Source of the DNA: Candidatus Sulfotelmatobacter sp.
GTDB taxonomy: Bacteria; Acidobacteriota; Terriglobia; Terriglobales; Acidobacteriaceae
Direction of reading: 5' to 3'
NCBI GenBank assembly: GCA_030041415.1
Contig: JASHNX010000014.1
Coordinates: forward strand, 14,161-78,160
Length of the DNA stretch: 64,000 nt
Shown here: positions 1 through 41,310 of the stretch, piece by piece
Layout of the letters: every line of letters starts with the position of its first letter
Numbering within the stretch: the first letter of the stretch is position 1
Program-made: the position numbers and the translations under genes
The notes under the pieces: model-generated
The model's database searches: none
Seen by the model: only the letters and a program-made list of their open reading frames with translations
What the model was told of the DNA's origin: nothing

Positions 1-588
1 GGCGGAGTTCACGATGGCGTCGATGATCGCAGGAGAGATTTTTCCGTCGGTTTTTCCGCCGCGGCCGGTGAAGGATTCAGCCTGAGCGATGGCGCTCTCG
101 ACCAGTTTGGCTTGCTCGACGACGTCGCCATGCTTTTCCTTGTAGGCGGCAGCGATGCTGGTGAGCACGCGCTTGAAGCTGGGACGACCGTAGCCATCGG
201 TGGGAGGGAAATAGGTGCCGCCGTAGAACGGTTTGCCTTCTGGAGTGAGAAATGCGGTCAGGGGCCAACCACCCTGTCCGCTGACCGCGCTGATGGCGGC
301 CTGATAGCGGCTGTCGATATCGGGGCGTTCGTCGCGATCGACCTTTACTGCGACGAAATGCTCGTTCACGATGGCGGCGACTTCGGGATCGTCGTAGGAC
401 TCGCGATCCATGACATGACACCAATGGCACCAGACGGCGCCGATATCGAGCAGCATGGGCTTGTTCTCGCGCTGGGCAGCTGCGAAGGCCTCATCGCCCC
501 ACTCGTGCCAGTGAATCGGCTGATGCATAGCGGAGCGCAGGTATGCGGAAGAGGCACGAGCGAGGGAGTTGAGGGTGGAGGTGGTCAT
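1..588 (-). CDS. thioredoxin-domain protein, DUF255 (YyaL N-terminal) type; N-terminal part only, gene runs off the window start
   Basis: Absent from the ORF track because there is no stop inside the window. Reverse translation from ATG (588..586) gives MTTSTLNSLARASSAYLRSAMHQPIHWHEWGDEAFAAAQRENKPMLLDIGAVWCHWCHVMDRESYDDPEVAAIVNEHFVAVKVDRDERPDIDSRY... and stays open to position 1. WCHWCHVM and VKVDRDERPDID are hallmark DUF255 thioredoxin-fold motifs. Confidence 0.85.
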   Translation of the reverse strand, partial: MTTSTLNSLARASSAYLRSAMHQPIHWHEWGDEAFAAAQRENKPMLLDIGAVWCHWCHVMDRESYDDPEVAAIVNEHFVAVKVDRDERPDIDSRYQAAISAVSGQGGWPLTAFLTPEGKPFYGGTYFPPTDGYGRPSFKRVLTSIAAAYKEKHGDVVEQAKLVESAIAQAESFTGRGGKTDGKISPAIIDAIVNSA

Positions 589-37407: not shown

Positions 37408-38652
37408 CTAGGCTGGATCGTCTTTCCATTGCAAGGTTTGTAGTGGGCCGACCACGACCAGCCAGCTGAAAGCACCTGCCACGCTCACAAGTGCAGCCAG
37501 GTAGAACGCCGAGTGGAAGTTGCCGGTGCGCTGCAGCAGGAAGCCGGTAGCTGCGGGGGCGGCTGCGCCGGAAAGATTGCCCATGCACTGCTGCAGGCCA
37601 GTCCATCGCCCCGCCATGCGCGGGCCGGCGAGGGTCTGGGCAGCTGAGTACAAGCAGGTTCCGGTAAAGCCCATTGACGCGCCGACCAGGACCAGCATCC
37701 AGGCGTAGAGATTTGCGGGGGCCAACACCGCCGCGACGAGAAATAAACCTACGAGGATGCTGCCGACAACCGCCAGAGTTTTTCGAATTAGTGTCACGGA
37801 GCTGCCAGTTGCGATCCAGCGATCGGCGAGCTTTCCCACGACTGCGGAAGATGTGGCATGCGTCAGGAAGACCGCGGCCGCTATCCGCGCCGTCTGATTC
37901 AGCGACAGGCCGCGGGCGCGATTCAGGTAAAAAGGCAGCCAGGTGAGCAGGAAATACAACGGATAAGCCAGCGCAAAATGGCAGATCCACATCCCCCACG
38001 CCGATCGGCGCCGGACGATAGCAAACATACCGGAAAAAGGCGAAGGCGCCTCTGCCAGCGCTGCGTCGCGCCCGGGCATCCAAGAGGCCCACGGCAGCAA
38101 CCAAAGCAGTCCTGCCACCCCTACCACGATAAAGAACGGCCGCCAACCGAATCGGCTGACCACGCTTCCTCCAACCATGAACCCTGCAGCCGGTCCCAGT
38201 GCCAATCCGGAAACGATCACAGCATTGGCGAAGCCACGGTGCTCTTCGTCGAAGTAAGTGCATATGATTTTTCCGTACGAGGGAAATGAGACGGCCTCGC
38301 CCAGACCGAGGACGATGCGCGCGGCCAGCAGCGCGGCAAATCCGTGCAGCAAGCCGGTGATCGCCGTGGTTCCGGACCATGCCAGGAATCCAAGGCCGAA
38401 TACCCACTTCACATCGAAGTGGTCCACCAGCCAGCCGGAAACAAGATGCATGACGGAATAGGTCCAGAAGAATGCAGAGAGGAGAGTTCCAAGCTGTGCA
38501 GCGGTAATGCCAATTTCATCCTTGATTAAAGGCGCGGCGATAGAAAGGTTGCTGCGGTCAATGTAGTTGATGACCACAGAGAGCCCGAGCAAAAGGAGCA
38601 CCCGGTTGGTACCCGCATCCATGGGCCGATCGTATGTGGAAGTGGCTTCCAT
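37408..38652 (-). CDS. MFS transporter
   Basis: The ATG at 38652 (MEATSTYDRPMDAGTNRVLLLLGLSVVINYIDRSNLSIAAP...) gives 12 TM segments. The track N-terminal extension to 38847 is Arg/Ala-rich and non-membrane. Confidence 0.8.
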   Translation of the reverse strand: MEATSTYDRPMDAGTNRVLLLLGLSVVINYIDRSNLSIAAPLIKDEIGITAAQLGTLLSAFFWTYSVMHLVSGWLVDHFDVKWVFGLGFLAWSGTTAITGLLHGFAALLAARIVLGLGEAVSFPSYGKIICTYFDEEHRGFANAVIVSGLALGPAAGFMVGGSVVSRFGWRPFFIVVGVAGLLWLLPWASWMPGRDAALAEAPSPFSGMFAIVRRRSAWGMWICHFALAYPLYFLLTWLPFYLNRARGLSLNQTARIAAAVFLTHATSSAVVGKLADRWIATGSSVTLIRKTLAVVGSILVGLFLVAAVLAPANLYAWMLVLVGASMGFTGTCLYSAAQTLAGPRMAGRWTGLQQCMGNLSGAAAPAATGFLLQRTGNFHSAFYLAALVSVAGAFSWLVVVGPLQTLQWKDDPA

Positions 38653-38867
38653 CCCGGAAAAGCGATGATTGTACACCGGTGGTGGGAGGGAAGCTCGGAC
38701 GATGTTTGGGGCAGCGTGCAGTTTGATAAGGAAGCGAGCCAAGCGCGCGAGTAATGCGGCGCAAAGGGCGCGCCGCAAGGCGCGGCTCGCCCAGGTCCTT
38801 CGCTGCGCAAAATAGGCTTGCTCAGGATGACAAGCAAGCTGAACCACTACGGGCGCGTCCGGAGTGA

Positions 38868-39878
38868 TTAACTGAACGTTGGCAGCTTGACCAGATCGTT
38901 TTCGGGGACGGGTTCGACCGGTTCCCCGGCTTTGCGCCAGGCGGTCAAGCCGCCGACGATCACGAACGTGTTAAATCCTTTTTCCCGCAGCATGTGCGCC
39001 ACACGGGCGCTGGTGGCTTCGCGCGCTCAAGTACAGTACAGATAGATGTCGTTGTCTTTGGGAAGGTTTTTGATTTCTTCCTCGAGATTGTTGGGCTCGA
39101 TGCGAATTGAATTCTTGATGCGGGCGGCGCCGCCATCGTAATAACCATGGCTGCGCACGTCGACAATCTGCACGCGGTCGGAGCCTTCAGAAGCCAAACG
39201 CCTCGCCAGTTCCTCAACCTGGATGCGGGGTACGATGCTATACATTCGGTTCTTGTAATATTGCCCAACGCGATATGCCGCATAGACGGCGAGCGTTATC
39301 AAGACAACGGCTTCCATAGCTTCGCTCGCTGCATGAAATCCGCGCAGGACCGCGGCGAGAAAATCGCGCGAAAGATAGCCAACTGAAAAATAGGTCACGG
39401 AATAAACCAACGCTCCCAGAAAGTCGAGACGAAGAAACTGCTCGAGACGCATCTTCATGCTTCCGGCGAGCGGCGCAGCCATGGTATTTACGCCGGGGAT
39501 GAATTTGGCAACGATCAGCGTGAGTTTCCCGCGCTTGTAGAACGACTCAGCCGAGCGAAGAATGCATGTTTCCGGATTGATGGAAACCCGGCAGAGAAAC
39601 CCCAGCAGTGCCCAGCCCATGTAGCGGCCCAGAAAGAATTGAATGGTATCGCCGAGGAGCAGTGCAACAATCGCCGCGAACAGAACATAAGGTCCCCACA
39701 AGGCGTGAGAAGCAACAGCGGCGCCTGCGGCCACCAGCGCGAGGGCAGCGGGAAAGGGGAGACCGATGGCCTCGATCAATAACAGGCCGAAAGTGAAGGC
39801 GTAGCCATGACGAAGCATGAGTGCCACAAGAGTCATAAGGAGTGTTGGATAAGAGAATACGGGAAAGGGTTCAAACAT
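38868..39878 (-). CDS. DedA-family membrane domain fused to a C-terminal rhodanese domain; contains one in-frame TGA (39027..39029) in the rhodanese active-site loop, so it is a candidate selenocysteine codon (alternative: nonsense pseudogene)
   Basis: The track ORF 39027..39878 ends ...NLPKDNDIYLYCT-TGA. The same frame continues without a stop for 52 codons (AREATSARVAHMLREKGFNTFVIVGGLTAWRKAGEPVEPVPENDLVKLPTFS, TAA at 38868..38870), which completes a rhodanese fold. The N-terminal 200 aa are DedA-like (GYAFTFGLLLIEAIGLPFPAAL). Confidence 0.6.
38996..39010 (-). promoter_or_regulatory. candidate bacterial SECIS-like hairpin downstream of the in-frame TGA
   Basis: The minus-strand RNA is GCGCC-CGUGU-GGCGC, a 5-bp GC stem with a 5-nt loop containing GU, at +17 to +31 nt after the UGA. 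Weaker flanking pairings are possible (CAGC/GCUG). Confidence 0.35.
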
Positions 39879-40320: not shown

Positions 40321-41310
40321 CTACTTGTCGCGGGAAATCACAAACTCCGGCGCCCAGAGCAACGCGCGTTTGATCTCGGACTCGGGAAAGATGCTGAGGG
40401 CTCGTTGTGCAGATTCGGCGTAGCGGGTGGCATGTGCGGTTGCGGCATCCAGCGAATCGTAGCGTTCGAGAATCTCGAGAATTTGCGGATGCGTGATGCC
40501 GTTGAAAGACCGCTCGCGCAGAATGGTTTCAATCTTCACTCGTTCCTCGGGCGTACAGCGCTCGAGCGAATGGATGACGGCCATGGTGGCTTTGCCTTCG
40601 CGCAGATCGCTGGCAACGGGCTTTCCGAGCACGTCTTCGGACGCGGTAAGGTCGAGCACATCGTCGACGATCTGAAACGCCATGCCCAAATCGTGGCCGT
40701 ATTGCGCCAGGGCCTGTTCCTCTGCCGATGTTGCCCCTCCGAGGATCGCGCCTAAACGCATGCATACCGAGAACAGACAGGCGGTCTTGCGGTAGATCAA
40801 ATCGAAATATTCGTCGAGAGTGATCGACTTGCCGAGCTTTTCCATTTGCAGCAGTTCGCCTTCAACCATCTGCTGGGTCAACTCGATCAGCGTATCGAGG
40901 ATGCGGAAATTGCGCTCCTGGACGGCAACCTTGAAGGCCTGCATGTAAAGCCAATCGCCGGCGAGGACGCATTTTGAATTGCCCCATTGAGTATTCGCTG
41001 CCGGGCGGCCACGGCGAGTGAGAGCTTCATCGATGATGTCATCGTGAACCAGGGTTGCAGTGTGAATGATCTCAACGACTGCGCCCAAGCGGACCGCGCC
41101 GCGCCCCTGGTAGTTGAAGAGTTTGGAAGAGAGAAAAAGAAGCGCAGGGCGAATGCGCTTGCCGCCCCCGGCGCGCAGATATTCTCCGATCTCAGTGATG
41201 GCCTGCACGCCCGATACCGTATCGTGGCCGAATTCACGTTCGAGGGCCGCGAGGTCCTCGTGCAGCAGATCGAAGATTTCCTTTCCGTTAATGATTGGCG
41301 GCGCGCTCAC
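40321..41310 (-). CDS. polyprenyl diphosphate synthase (trans-IPPS, long-chain type)
   Basis: The first DDxxD is in TLVHDDIIDEA and the second in FQIVDDVLD. GTG start at 41310. 329 aa. Confidence 0.88.
   Translation of the reverse strand: MSAPPIINGKEIFDLLHEDLAALEREFGHDTVSGVQAITEIGEYLRAGGGKRIRPALLFLSSKLFNYQGRGAVRLGAVVEIIHTATLVHDDIIDEALTRRGRPAANTQWGNSKCVLAGDWLYMQAFKVAVQERNFRILDTLIELTQQMVEGELLQMEKLGKSITLDEYFDLIYRKTACLFSVCMRLGAILGGATSAEEQALAQYGHDLGMAFQIVDDVLDLTASEDVLGKPVASDLREGKATMAVIHSLERCTPEERVKIETILRERSFNGITHPQILEILERYDSLDAATAHATRYAESAQRALSIFPESEIKRALLWAPEFVISRDK

What the first reader, a model, noticed from the sequence alone, without database searches (positions are those of the whole stretch)
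38996..39010. SECIS-like GC hairpin with a GU loop 17-31 nt downstream of the in-frame TGA
Immediately after the UGA the mRNA reads GCGCGCGAAGCCACCA-GCGCC-CGUGU-GGCGC-ACAUGCUGCGG. GCGCC and GGCGC form a perfect 5-bp G/C stem with the apical loop CGUGU, whose G-U falls 23-24 nt after the UGA. Bacterial SECIS elements are SelB-binding hairpins located a short, fixed distance downstream of UGA, with a conserved G/U in the apical loop. As I recall, models place this roughly 16-37 nt downstream. Additional outer pairing (CAGC at +15..18 with GCUG at +36..39) could extend the structure in an alternative fold. A short GC hairpin in GC-rich coding sequence can arise by chance, so this supports the Sec reading but does not prove it.
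Basis: seen in the sequence. Interest (0 to 1): 0.6.

Follow-up and report, generated by a model that had tools for sequence, protein, structure and literature searches.

The report
Selenocysteine insertion hairpin in DedA-rhodanese gene
The small GC hairpin is almost certainly the real signal that makes the ribosome read the in-frame TGA as selenocysteine in a membrane DedA-rhodanese protein; the case is well supported but ordinary, because both this kind of signal and this kind of selenoprotein domain are already known.

Summary
On the minus strand the stem is 39010..39006 with 39000..38996, the loop CGUGU is 39005..39001, and it lies 17-31 nt after the TGA at 39029..39027.

The single sequence alone is weak evidence. 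Its folding z-score is 0.38, and 0.5-3.5% of random TGAs in this genome carry a comparable hairpin.

Comparative data settle the question:
- In 151 distinct TGA-carrying orthologues, the 16 nt AGCGCC-CGKGU-GGCGC never varies, even at synonymous sites. The one exception is a C-to-U change that keeps a U·G pair.
- Cys-coding relatives vary freely at the same codons.
- Across the wider family of CxU rhodanese selenoproteins in the phylum, the stem shows compensatory changes (C-G to U-A, G-C and C-G flips). The second loop base is always G and is followed by G or U.
- All published bacterial SECIS criteria are met.
- The genome has selB with its RNA-binding winged helices, a TGA-containing selD and tRNA-Sec. 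selA is missing from this fragmented assembly but is present in 25 of 25 congeners.

The TGA aligns with the catalytic Cys of rhodanese. The domain belongs to a known selenoprotein type (NF041203-like, CxU). I found no description of its DedA-fused form as a selenoprotein, and public annotation truncates it. Verdict: a real SECIS and a new member of a known kind.

The parts
38868..39878 (-). Full gene for the DedA(VTT)-rhodanese fusion: 336 codons with TGA = Sec at codon 284, and stop TAA at 38870..38868. Gene callers stop at the TGA and give 283 aa.
   Evidence: Translation. Pfam VTT_dom at residues 43-168 and Rhodanese at 222-316. Synonymous versus non-synonymous codon differences are 1170:367 downstream of the hairpin and 1225:377 upstream, so selection on the protein is the same on both sides of the TGA.
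39027..39029 (-). In-frame TGA (Sec284) in the motif IYLYC-T-U-AREATS. It sits at the catalytic-Cys position of the rhodanese active-site loop.
   Evidence: TGA is found in 79 of 81 close loci and in about 110 genomes of the family. Cys stands at this position in full-length homologues. It aligns without a gap to the catalytic Cys of rhodanese 6mxv_A. In the model it lies in the loop between strand 277-282 and helix 289-299.
39011..39026 (-). 16-nt spacer between the UGA and the hairpin (codons +1 to +5 and the first base of codon +6).
   Evidence: Sequence. Third positions of codons +1, +4 and +5 vary freely among orthologues, while CGC (+2) is nearly fixed.
39006..39010 (-). 5' arm of the SECIS stem, GCGCC (from codons Ser290 AGC and Ala291 GCC).
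   Evidence: Invariant in 150 of 151 TGA orthologues; the exception, AGU, keeps a U·G pair. Compensatory changes occur in the wider family.
39001..39005 (-). Apical loop CGUGU (CGGGU in most orthologues). G at loop position 2 followed by G or U is the presumed SelB contact.
   Evidence: Loop position 2 is G in 81 of 81 distinct family segments and position 3 is G or U in 81 of 81. Codon +8 is NG[G/T] in 233 of 233 Sec forms against 9 of 33 Cys forms.
38996..39000 (-). 3' arm of the SECIS stem, GGCGC (from codons Val293 GUG, Ala294 GCG and His295 C).
   Evidence: GTG and GCG have no synonymous variants in 151 TGA orthologues. Cys forms show GTG/GTC/GTT/GTA and GCG/GCC/GCA.
38978..39031 (-). Possible extended lower helix predicted by RNAfold (CUU/AAG, CGC/GCG, AGC/GCU) around the hairpin. 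It includes the U of the UGA. This part is uncertain.
   Evidence: It is part of the minimum-energy fold. The pairs are kept in 71-100% of 96 same-genus orthologues but in only 42-100% in other genera, with no compensatory changes. Reduced synonymous variation at codons -1, +2 and +13 to +20 within the genus fits it but does not prove it.
38816..38839 (-). Terminator-like hairpin plus a T-run, about 30 nt after the TAA of the full-length frame.
   Evidence: Consensus scan. This is only a pattern match.

Best explanation
The 15-nt hairpin GCGCC-CGUGU-GGCGC (39010..38996, minus strand) is the bacterial selenocysteine insertion sequence (SECIS) of a DedA-rhodanese fusion gene.

Inferred mechanism, by analogy with the characterised Escherichia coli and Moorella systems:
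- When the UGA at 39029..39027 reaches the ribosomal A site, the hairpin starts 17 nt downstream, close to the mRNA entrance of the ribosome.
- The C-terminal winged-helix domain of SelB, bound to GTP and Sec-tRNA(Sec), binds the apical loop through the invariant G and the following G or U, presented on a 4-5-bp G/C stem.
- This delivers Sec-tRNA(Sec) to the UGA in competition with release factor 2.
- Translation then continues for 52 more codons to the TAA at 38870..38868.

The product is a 336-residue membrane protein. Sec284 sits at the catalytic position of the rhodanese active-site loop, two residues after Cys282 (a CxU motif).

Shown here:
- the hairpin and its position;
- RNA-level constraint and covariation that are specific to the TGA forms;
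- the Sec/Cys correspondence at this position;
- protein-level selection downstream of the TGA;
- selB, selD and tRNA-Sec in the genome.

Inferred, not shown: SelB binding, actual Sec incorporation, and what the enzyme does.
For: Position and shape meet every published bSECIS criterion (PMC13188914):
- loop of 5 nt (allowed 3-9);
- stem of 5 bp (allowed 4-16);
- loop reads C-G-U, so G is in the first two positions and is followed by G or U;
- 21 nt between the UGA and the loop (allowed 16-37);
- free energy -7.6 kcal/mol for the bare hairpin and -14.0 for 45 nt (limit -7.5).

Synonymous constraint:
- In 151 distinct TGA orthologues the minor-codon fractions at the stem codons are 0.007, 0, 0 and 0.
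- The minimum among 45 other conserved degenerate codons of the gene is 0.079 and the median 0.35.
- The 25 Cys forms show 0.36-0.50 at the same codons.

Covariation in 81 distinct family members:
- pair 21-33 is CG 59, UA 13, GC 4, UG 1;
- pair 20-34 is GC 47, GU 9, CG 5;
- pair 24-30 is CG 80, UA 1;
- the covariation score is 0.283 against 0.163 +/- 0.012 in shuffles (0 of 500 reach it).

Sec versus Cys forms:
- the inner 4 bp are intact in 229 of 233 Sec forms and 5 of 33 Cys forms;
- the loop codon is NG[G/U] in 233 of 233 against 9 of 33.

Natural experiment on the tree. There are two Sec-to-Cys reversions nested inside the Sec clade:
- the recent one (L152) still has the hairpin;
- the older 5-member clade has lost the loop G (CGG to AAG/AAA) and accumulated synonymous stem changes.

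Sec machinery:
- selB scores 379 bits, over its cut-off, and carries SelB-wing_2 and SelB-wing_3;
- selD scores 377 bits and itself contains an in-frame TGA;
- tRNA-SeC(tca) is present.

Other candidate selenoprotein genes in the same genome have hairpins with G[G/U] loops at similar distances.

TGA is otherwise an ordinary stop here: it ends 490 of 1,383 long open frames.
Against: - No experiment was done: there is no evidence of selenium in the protein or of SelB binding.
- selA was not found in this assembly. The assembly has 350 contigs and is 95.6% complete, and selA is present in 25 of 25 other genomes of the genus, so a gap is the likely reason. It remains a missing component.
- Within the direct orthologues the stem shows conservation only, not covariation. 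The covariation comes from more distant CxU-rhodanese genes.
- The counts are not phylogenetically independent.
- The hairpin is short. Its energy only just passes the published threshold, and the single-sequence fold is not better than shuffles.
- Rfam has no matching family, and bSECISearch could not be run.
- 5 of 33 Cys forms keep the inner 4 bp. At least one of them is a recent revertant.
Confidence: 0.9

Rival explanations
1. The hairpin is a chance by-product of GC-rich coding sequence for the conserved peptide T-S-A-R-V-A. Either the TGA is decoded with the help of some other element, or the nucleotide conservation reflects only amino-acid conservation and codon bias.
For: The single-sequence fold is not better than shuffles. 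About 3.5% of random TGAs in this genome have a >=5-bp hairpin of this kind. The encoded peptide is conserved in Cys forms too.
Against: Cys forms that encode the same T-S-A-R-V-A use other codons (AGT; GCG/GCT; CGC; GTC/GTT; GCC/GCA), whereas 151 Sec forms never do. The amino acid at the loop changes (R, S, G) but its codon is always NG[G/U]. Compensatory changes occur in the stem. No other conserved structure lies within 60 nt.
Confidence: 0.03
2. The TGA is a true stop, or a pseudogene lesion. In that case the product is a 283-residue DedA protein with a decaying rhodanese remnant, and the hairpin has no recoding role.
For: Every public gene call ends at the TGA: 97 of 120 homologue clusters end in ...LYC[T/S]. 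selA is absent from this assembly.
Against: The frame stays open for 52 codons in all 79 close loci and in about 110 genomes. The downstream codons show the same ratio of synonymous to non-synonymous change as the upstream ones. The TGA aligns with Cys in full-length homologues and with the catalytic Cys of solved rhodaneses. A terminator-like site follows the TAA, not the TGA.
Confidence: 0.03
3. The hairpin stimulates read-through of the UGA by a near-cognate tRNA (for example Trp or Cys), or acts as a translational pause or mRNA-stability element, independently of SelB and selenocysteine.
For: Downstream hairpins can promote stop-codon read-through in other systems (general knowledge). No biochemical evidence for Sec exists here.
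Against: The loop rule (G, then G or U), the distance and the stem size match the SelB-type bSECIS model. The genome keeps a full-length SelB with RNA-binding winged helices, tRNA-Sec, and a Sec-containing SelD. The UGA replaces a catalytic Cys, which is the classic Sec/Cys pair.
Confidence: 0.04

Closest known systems
Bacterial SECIS elements of the consensus model of Zhang and Gladyshev 2005 (bSECISearch), as summarised in PMC13188914. The characterised examples are E. coli fdhF/fdnG and Moorella thermoacetica fdhA.
   Same: It is a stem-loop inside the coding sequence just downstream of the Sec-UGA. The apical loop is small, with G followed by G or U in its first positions. Spacing, stem length and energy are all inside the model's ranges.
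   Different: It is at the small end of the range. Only a 4-5-bp G/C stem with a 5-nt loop is conserved (13-15 nt). There is no conserved lower helix beyond the genus. I see no counterpart of the bulged U of the E. coli fdhF upper stem (from my own knowledge of that element). The loop G lies 23 nt after the UGA, against 20 nt in fdhF by my count from memory of that sequence.
Rhodanese-like selenoprotein 'form 3', CxU motif, NCBIfam NF041203 rhodanese_LYCAU, 'rhodanese-related (seleno)protein' (listed in PMC13188914).
   Same: The rhodanese domain has Cys-x-Sec at the end of the central strand (here LYC-T-U). It is the best NCBIfam match (86.2 bits, positions 15-125 of 126). The same hairpin lies at the same codons in stand-alone members that pass the family cut-off (L217, L218).
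   Different: The score is below the equivalog cut-off of 115 bits. Here the domain is the C-terminal part of a 336-residue membrane protein with an N-terminal DedA/VTT domain, not a 126-residue stand-alone protein.
DedA (COG0586, PF09335)-rhodanese fusions noted by the DedA subfamily survey (PMC10127716).
   Same: The domain architecture is the same: VTT/DedA followed by PF00581 rhodanese.
   Different: That paper lists the fusion and calls its role unclear. It does not mention selenocysteine. Here, most members in Acidobacteriota have UGA at the catalytic position.
Other SECIS candidates in the same genome: selD, an AhpD/CMD-like CxxU protein and a DUF3179 UxxC protein.
   Same: Each hairpin begins 13-17 nt after the UGA, and the apical loops start with G[G/U] (GGC, GUU, GGUCU).
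   Different: Those have 6-8-bp upper stems, and selD has a clear lower helix. The rhodanese hairpin is shorter, and a C precedes its loop G.

Membership tests
Bacterial SECIS (bSECIS consensus model, PMC13188914) | Apical loop of 3-9 nt on an upper stem of 4-16 bp | tested here: met
   The loop is 5 nt (CGUGU) and the stem is 5 bp (GCGCC/GGCGC). The inner 4 bp are conserved family-wide.
Bacterial SECIS (bSECIS consensus model, PMC13188914) | At least one G in the first two loop positions, usually followed by G or U | tested here: met
   The loop reads C-G-U-G-U. Position 2 is G in 81 of 81 distinct family segments and position 3 is G or U in 81 of 81.
Bacterial SECIS (bSECIS consensus model, PMC13188914) | [quoted passage not shown] | tested here: met
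   There are 21 nt between the UGA and the first loop base. The spacing is identical in all family members aligned without gaps.
Bacterial SECIS (bSECIS consensus model, PMC13188914) | Minimum free energy <= -7.5 kcal/mol | tested here: met
   The energy is -7.6 kcal/mol for the bare 15-mer, which is marginal, -9.1 with flanking bases and -14.0 for UGA plus 42 nt.
Bacterial SECIS (bSECIS consensus model, PMC13188914) | Lies after an in-frame UGA that corresponds to Cys in homologues, with TGA-containing orthologues in other organisms | tested here: met
Bacterial SECIS (bSECIS consensus model, PMC13188914) | The host genome encodes the Sec-decoding machinery (selA, selB, selC, selD) | tested here: inconclusive
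   selB, selD and tRNA-Sec were found. selA was not found in this 350-contig assembly, but it is present in 25 of 25 other genomes of the genus.
Bacterial SECIS (bSECIS consensus model, PMC13188914) | Binds SelB and directs Sec insertion | not testable with these tools
   This needs reporter assays, SelB binding assays, or 75Se labelling or mass spectrometry.
Any curated Rfam family, SECIS families included | Covariance-model match at or near the gathering score | tested here: not met
   There is no match on the hairpin at E <= 10 in 38700..39300. I do not know of a general bacterial SECIS model in Rfam, so this says little.
NCBIfam NF041203 rhodanese_LYCAU (rhodanese-related selenoprotein, CxU) | Whole-protein score at or above the curated equivalog cut-off (115 bits) | tested here: not met
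   The score is 86.2 bits, or 82 bits in the genome search. The gene is therefore filed as a close relative and fusion form, not as an equivalog member.
NCBIfam NF041203 rhodanese_LYCAU (rhodanese-related selenoprotein, CxU) | Cys-x-Sec motif at the end of the central beta strand, with Sec at the catalytic position | tested here: met
   The motif is LYC-T-U. The U aligns with the catalytic Cys of 6mxv_A. Strand 277-282 is followed by the loop that holds U284.
DedA / VTT domain family (PF09335) | Pfam match above the gathering score | tested here: met
   VTT_dom scores 44.3 bits against a cut-off of 33.9, at residues 43-168.

The most novel reading that the evidence does not exclude
The DedA-rhodanese fusion may be a distinct, undescribed class of membrane-integrated selenoenzyme, conserved across soil Acidobacteriota and truncated everywhere in public annotation. 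In this reading a Cys-x-Sec rhodanese site is coupled to a DedA-type transporter, for example for handling chalcogens (persulfide, selenide or oxyanions) at the membrane or for a redox step on a lipid carrier. Its SECIS would show that the SelB of this phylum needs only a 13-15-nt hairpin, without a lower helix or a bulged U.
Probability: 0.3. Interest if true: 0.55.

Novelty: new member of a known kind. Interest (0 to 1): 0.3.

Why it matters
This result corrects a systematic annotation error. In the homologue search, 97 of 120 protein clusters end at ...LYC[T/S], which cuts off the catalytic residue and about 50 residues of the rhodanese domain.

It also gives a clean, well-sampled example of how an RNA signal constrains codon choice inside a coding region. 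That constraint relaxes once Sec reverts to Cys.

It defines a compact SECIS consensus for Acidobacteriota: a 4-5-bp G/C stem, a loop N-G-[G/U]-N-N, and 21 nt after the UGA. This consensus could improve selenoprotein prediction in soil metagenomes.

It does not reveal a new mechanism.

Tried and rejected
- **Rfam scan of 38700..39300 at E <= 10.** Nothing was found on the hairpin; the only hit was a chance Twister-P5 match elsewhere at E = 9.8.
- **Thermodynamic significance of the single sequence.** It is not significant (z = 0.38), so this line was dropped in favour of comparative tests.
It is not conserved outside close relatives.
- **The longer lower helix in the RNAfold minimum-energy structure.** It is kept within the genus only and has no compensatory changes. 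It is reported as uncertain.
- **RNAalifold on longer stretches of close orthologues.** Only the apical hairpin is consistent. The other helices change with the chosen range.
- **My own codon-score scan for further TGA-interrupted genes.** Most of the 73 candidates look like antisense noise. Only the AhpD/CMD-like and DUF3179 candidates were credible. The scan even missed selD.
- **selA.** Searches with TIGR00474 and PF03841 gave only weak hits to pyridoxal-phosphate enzymes. selA is not next to selB on contig C348.
- **Reassigned TGA (genetic code 4 or 25).** Rejected, because TGA ends 35% of long open frames.
- **AlphaFold model.** It has moderate confidence only (pLDDT 68, pTM 0.45). It was used only for secondary structure around the Sec, and no fold search was run on it.
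- **A covariance model of the bare hairpin for genome-wide search.** Not attempted, because a 15-nt hairpin carries too little information to be significant over a 4.8-Mb genome.

Full report
**Observation**

On the minus strand the mRNA reads ...CUG UAC UGU ACU UGA GCG CGC GAA GCC ACC AGC GCC CGU GUG GCG CAC AUG CUG CGG....
- The TGA is at 39029..39027.
- The stem arms are GCGCC (39010..39006) and GGCGC (39000..38996).
- The loop CGUGU is at 39005..39001.

RNAfold keeps the hairpin in the minimum-energy structure. The bare 15-mer has -7.6 kcal/mol.

Taken alone, the hairpin is weak evidence:
- The 66-nt region folds no better than dinucleotide shuffles (z = 0.38).
- Among 6,961 sampled TGA triplets of the genome, 11.9% have a >=4-bp hairpin with a G[G/U] loop at the allowed distance. 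For >=5-bp stems the figure is 3.5%, and for >=5-bp all-G/C stems 0.46%.

**The gene**

Reading TGA as a residue gives a 336-codon frame (39878..38871, stop TAA 38870..38868).
- It has a DedA/VTT membrane domain (residues 43-168) and a rhodanese domain (222-316).
- The best NCBIfam match is NF041203 rhodanese_LYCAU, 'rhodanese-related (seleno)protein', at 86.2 bits. This is below the equivalog cut-off of 115.
- The local motif is IYLYC-T-U-AREATSARVA.
- The U aligns without a gap to the catalytic Cys of a solved rhodanese (6mxv_A, YFYC-GGGFRSALVA).
- In a moderate-confidence model (pLDDT 68) it sits in the loop between strand 277-282 and helix 289-299. The hairpin therefore encodes the start of the helix that follows the active-site loop.
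- The neighbouring genes are a polyprenyl synthetase upstream and an MFS transporter downstream.
- A terminator-like site follows the TAA, not the TGA.

**Is the TGA decoded?**

- In the big protein collection, 97 of 120 homologue clusters end exactly at ...LYC[T/S].
- Of the 23 full-length clusters, 20 show Cys at that position and one shows Arg. Two were not displayed at the site.
- Of 80 loci fetched from species genomes, 78 have TGA and 2 have TGC.
- In a search of 401 genomes of the order, every listed match of 53-78% identity carries exactly one TGA. This covers the window's genus and about 20 other genera. The exceptions are five Cys forms. A more distant group (<=47% identity, motif YCSC) has Cys.
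- Codon differences downstream of the hairpin are 1170 synonymous to 367 non-synonymous. Upstream they are 1225 to 377. The part after the TGA is therefore under the same protein-level selection.
- TGA ends 490 of 1,383 long open frames, so it is a normal stop in this genome.

**Sec machinery**

- selB scores 379 bits, over its cut-off. It has the GTPase domain, domain 2, the beta-barrel, and the SelB-wing_2 and SelB-wing_3 winged helices.
- selD scores 377 bits and contains an in-frame TGA in the motif G-U-ASK.
- A tRNA-SeC(tca) lies on contig C343.
- selA was not found. It is present over the cut-off in 25 of 25 other genomes of the genus, so an assembly gap is the likely reason (350 contigs, 95.6% complete).
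- The same genome has further candidate selenoprotein genes: an AhpD/CMD-like CxxU protein and a DUF3179 UxxC protein. Each has a 6-8-bp hairpin whose loop begins with G[G/U], 16-17 nt after the UGA. selD has a 7-bp upper stem with the loop GGC.

**Test 1: synonymous constraint**

Among 79 close TGA sequences, codons -1 (ACU), +2 (CGC), +6 (AGC), +7 (GCC), +9 (GUG) and +10 (GCG) have zero codon entropy. Most neighbouring codons show clear synonymous variation, up to about 2 bits.

With 151 distinct TGA orthologues from more than 20 genera:
- The minor-codon fractions at the four stem codons are 0.007, 0, 0 and 0.
- The minimum among 45 other conserved degenerate codons is 0.079, and the median is 0.35.
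- In 25 Cys forms the same codons have 0.36-0.50.
- The single stem variant (L139, AGU) keeps a U·G pair.

**Test 2: covariation**

A phylum-wide search with NF041203 found CxU rhodanese domains with one TGA in many architectures, with open frames of about 120 to 670 residues. I fetched 90 of them.

In 81 distinct 42-nt segments aligned without gaps, the named 5-bp helix gave these results:
- 94.1% of cells are paired.
- 23 cells have changes on both sides (0 of 500 shuffles reach this).
- The covariation score is 0.283, against 0.163 +/- 0.012 in shuffles.
- Slid controls pair at only 24-64%.
- Pair 21-33 is CG 59, UA 13, GC 4, UG 1.
- The closing pair 24-30 is CG 80, UA 1.
- The bottom pair 20-34 is GC 47, GU 9, CG 5, and unpaired in 20. 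The conserved core is therefore 4 bp, with a fifth pair in about three quarters of the segments. The window's own copy has all five pairs.

RNAalifold predicts the same 4-bp helix on its own.

Loop position 2 is G in 81 of 81 and position 3 is G or U in 81 of 81. The amino acid encoded there changes (Arg, Ser, Gly), but its codon is always NG[G/U]: 233 of 233 Sec forms against 9 of 33 Cys forms. The inner 4 bp are intact in 229 of 233 Sec forms against 5 of 33 Cys forms. These counts are not phylogenetically independent.

**Test 3: a natural experiment**

On a tree of 116 DedA-rhodanese proteins the Sec forms make one clade (support 100) that contains two nested Sec-to-Cys reversions.
- L152, sister to a Sec form, still has the intact hairpin.
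- The five-member Cys clade has lost the loop G (CGG to AAG/AAA) and carries synonymous changes in the stem codons (GCU, GUA, GUC, GCC, GCA).

This is what relaxed RNA-level selection after loss of Sec would look like.

**Comparison with the known model**

A 2026 review gives the bSECIS model as (PMC13188914):
- a loop of 3-9 nt;
- an upper stem of 4-16 bp;
- a G in the first two loop positions, mostly followed by G or U;
- 16-37 nt between the UGA and the loop;
- a free energy of <= -7.5 kcal/mol.

All are met, the energy only just for the bare hairpin.

[quoted passage not shown] DedA-rhodanese fusions are mentioned in a DedA survey, which calls their role unclear and does not mention selenocysteine (PMC10127716). 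My searches for papers combining selenoprotein, rhodanese and DedA, or Sulfotelmatobacter and selenocysteine, found none.

**What remains uncertain**

- Within the genus there is extra synonymous constraint at codons -1, +2 and +13 to +20. It coincides with a lower helix in the minimum-energy fold. That helix is not kept in other genera and shows no compensatory change.
- ACU before the UGA and CGC at +2 stay fixed even where the putative partners have changed. I cannot explain this.
- SelB binding, Sec incorporation and the enzyme's function are inferred, not shown.

**Earlier notes of this scan**

Notes read after I had reached this reading describe the same recoded DedA-rhodanese gene in other genomes and come to the same conclusion. 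They are not independent evidence.

**Verdict**

It is a typical, compact bacterial SECIS in a fusion-form relative of a known selenoprotein family. Confidence is 0.9. Interest is modest.

Noticed in passing
L012 (G000:C187:18438-19367, minus strand; outside the window): selD of this genome has an in-frame TGA at the G-U-ASK position. It is followed by a two-tier hairpin: a lower stem UUCCAAGC/GCUUGGGA and an upper stem GUCCAGC-GGC-GCUGGAC. SelD is thus probably a selenoprotein itself.
   Followed up: partly
G000 contig C2 and contig C12 (minus strands; outside the window): Two more candidate selenoprotein genes were seen. One is an AhpD/CMD-like protein with C-V-Y-U-IESH (Pfam CMD). The other is a DUF3179 membrane protein with Y-U-T-L-C (Pfam DUF3179, 200 bits). 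Each has a 6-8-bp hairpin with a G[G/U] loop 16-17 nt after the TGA.
   Followed up: partly
whole genome G000: selA was not found in this 350-contig assembly, although selB, selD and tRNA-Sec are present. All 25 other sampled genomes of the genus have selA. An assembly gap is the likely reason.
   Followed up: yes
window 39030..39032 and 39021..39023 (minus strand): The codon before the UGA is ACU in 150 of 151 DedA-type Sec orthologues, and codon +2 is CGC in 146 of 149. Both stay fixed even in genera where the putative lower-helix partners have diverged. Cys forms vary at both. The cause is unexplained; it may be a UGA-context effect.
   Followed up: partly
window 38967..38990 (minus strand; codons +13 to +20): Within the genus, synonymous variation is strongly reduced over CUG CGG GAA AAA GGN UUC AAC ACG. 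This includes AAA and GAA, which run against the gene's usual AAG and GAG preference. The constraint is lost in other genera.
   Followed up: partly
L152 (G257:C2:1468302-1469567): This Cys (TGC) orthologue is nested among Sec forms and still carries the intact hairpin AGCGCC-CGGGU-GGCGC. It is apparently a recent Sec-to-Cys reversion with a relic SECIS.
   Followed up: yes
L235 (G726:C19, about 110909-111670): Two tandem stand-alone CxU rhodanese genes each have a TGA, and each has the U-A compensated version of the stem (GUGCC...GGCAC and GUGCC...GGCAU).
   Followed up: partly
P0003 (metagenome contig of 1,261 bases): One full-length homologue has Arg instead of Sec or Cys at the catalytic position (LYCT-R-AREATS). 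This may be a TGA-to-CGA change or a sequencing error.
   Followed up: no
window 40324..41310 and 37411..38847 (minus strand): The gene lies between a polyprenyl synthetase (upstream) and an MFS transporter (downstream). The first neighbour is suggestive, given the proposed role of DedA proteins in flipping undecaprenyl phosphate. Whether this gene order is conserved was not examined.
   Followed up: no
window 38816..38839 (minus strand): A terminator-like hairpin (GCTTGCTTGTCATCCTGAGCAAGC plus a T-run) lies about 30 nt after the TAA of the full-length frame. It falls inside the 5' end of the mechanically listed MFS ORF, whose true start is probably further downstream.
   Followed up: no
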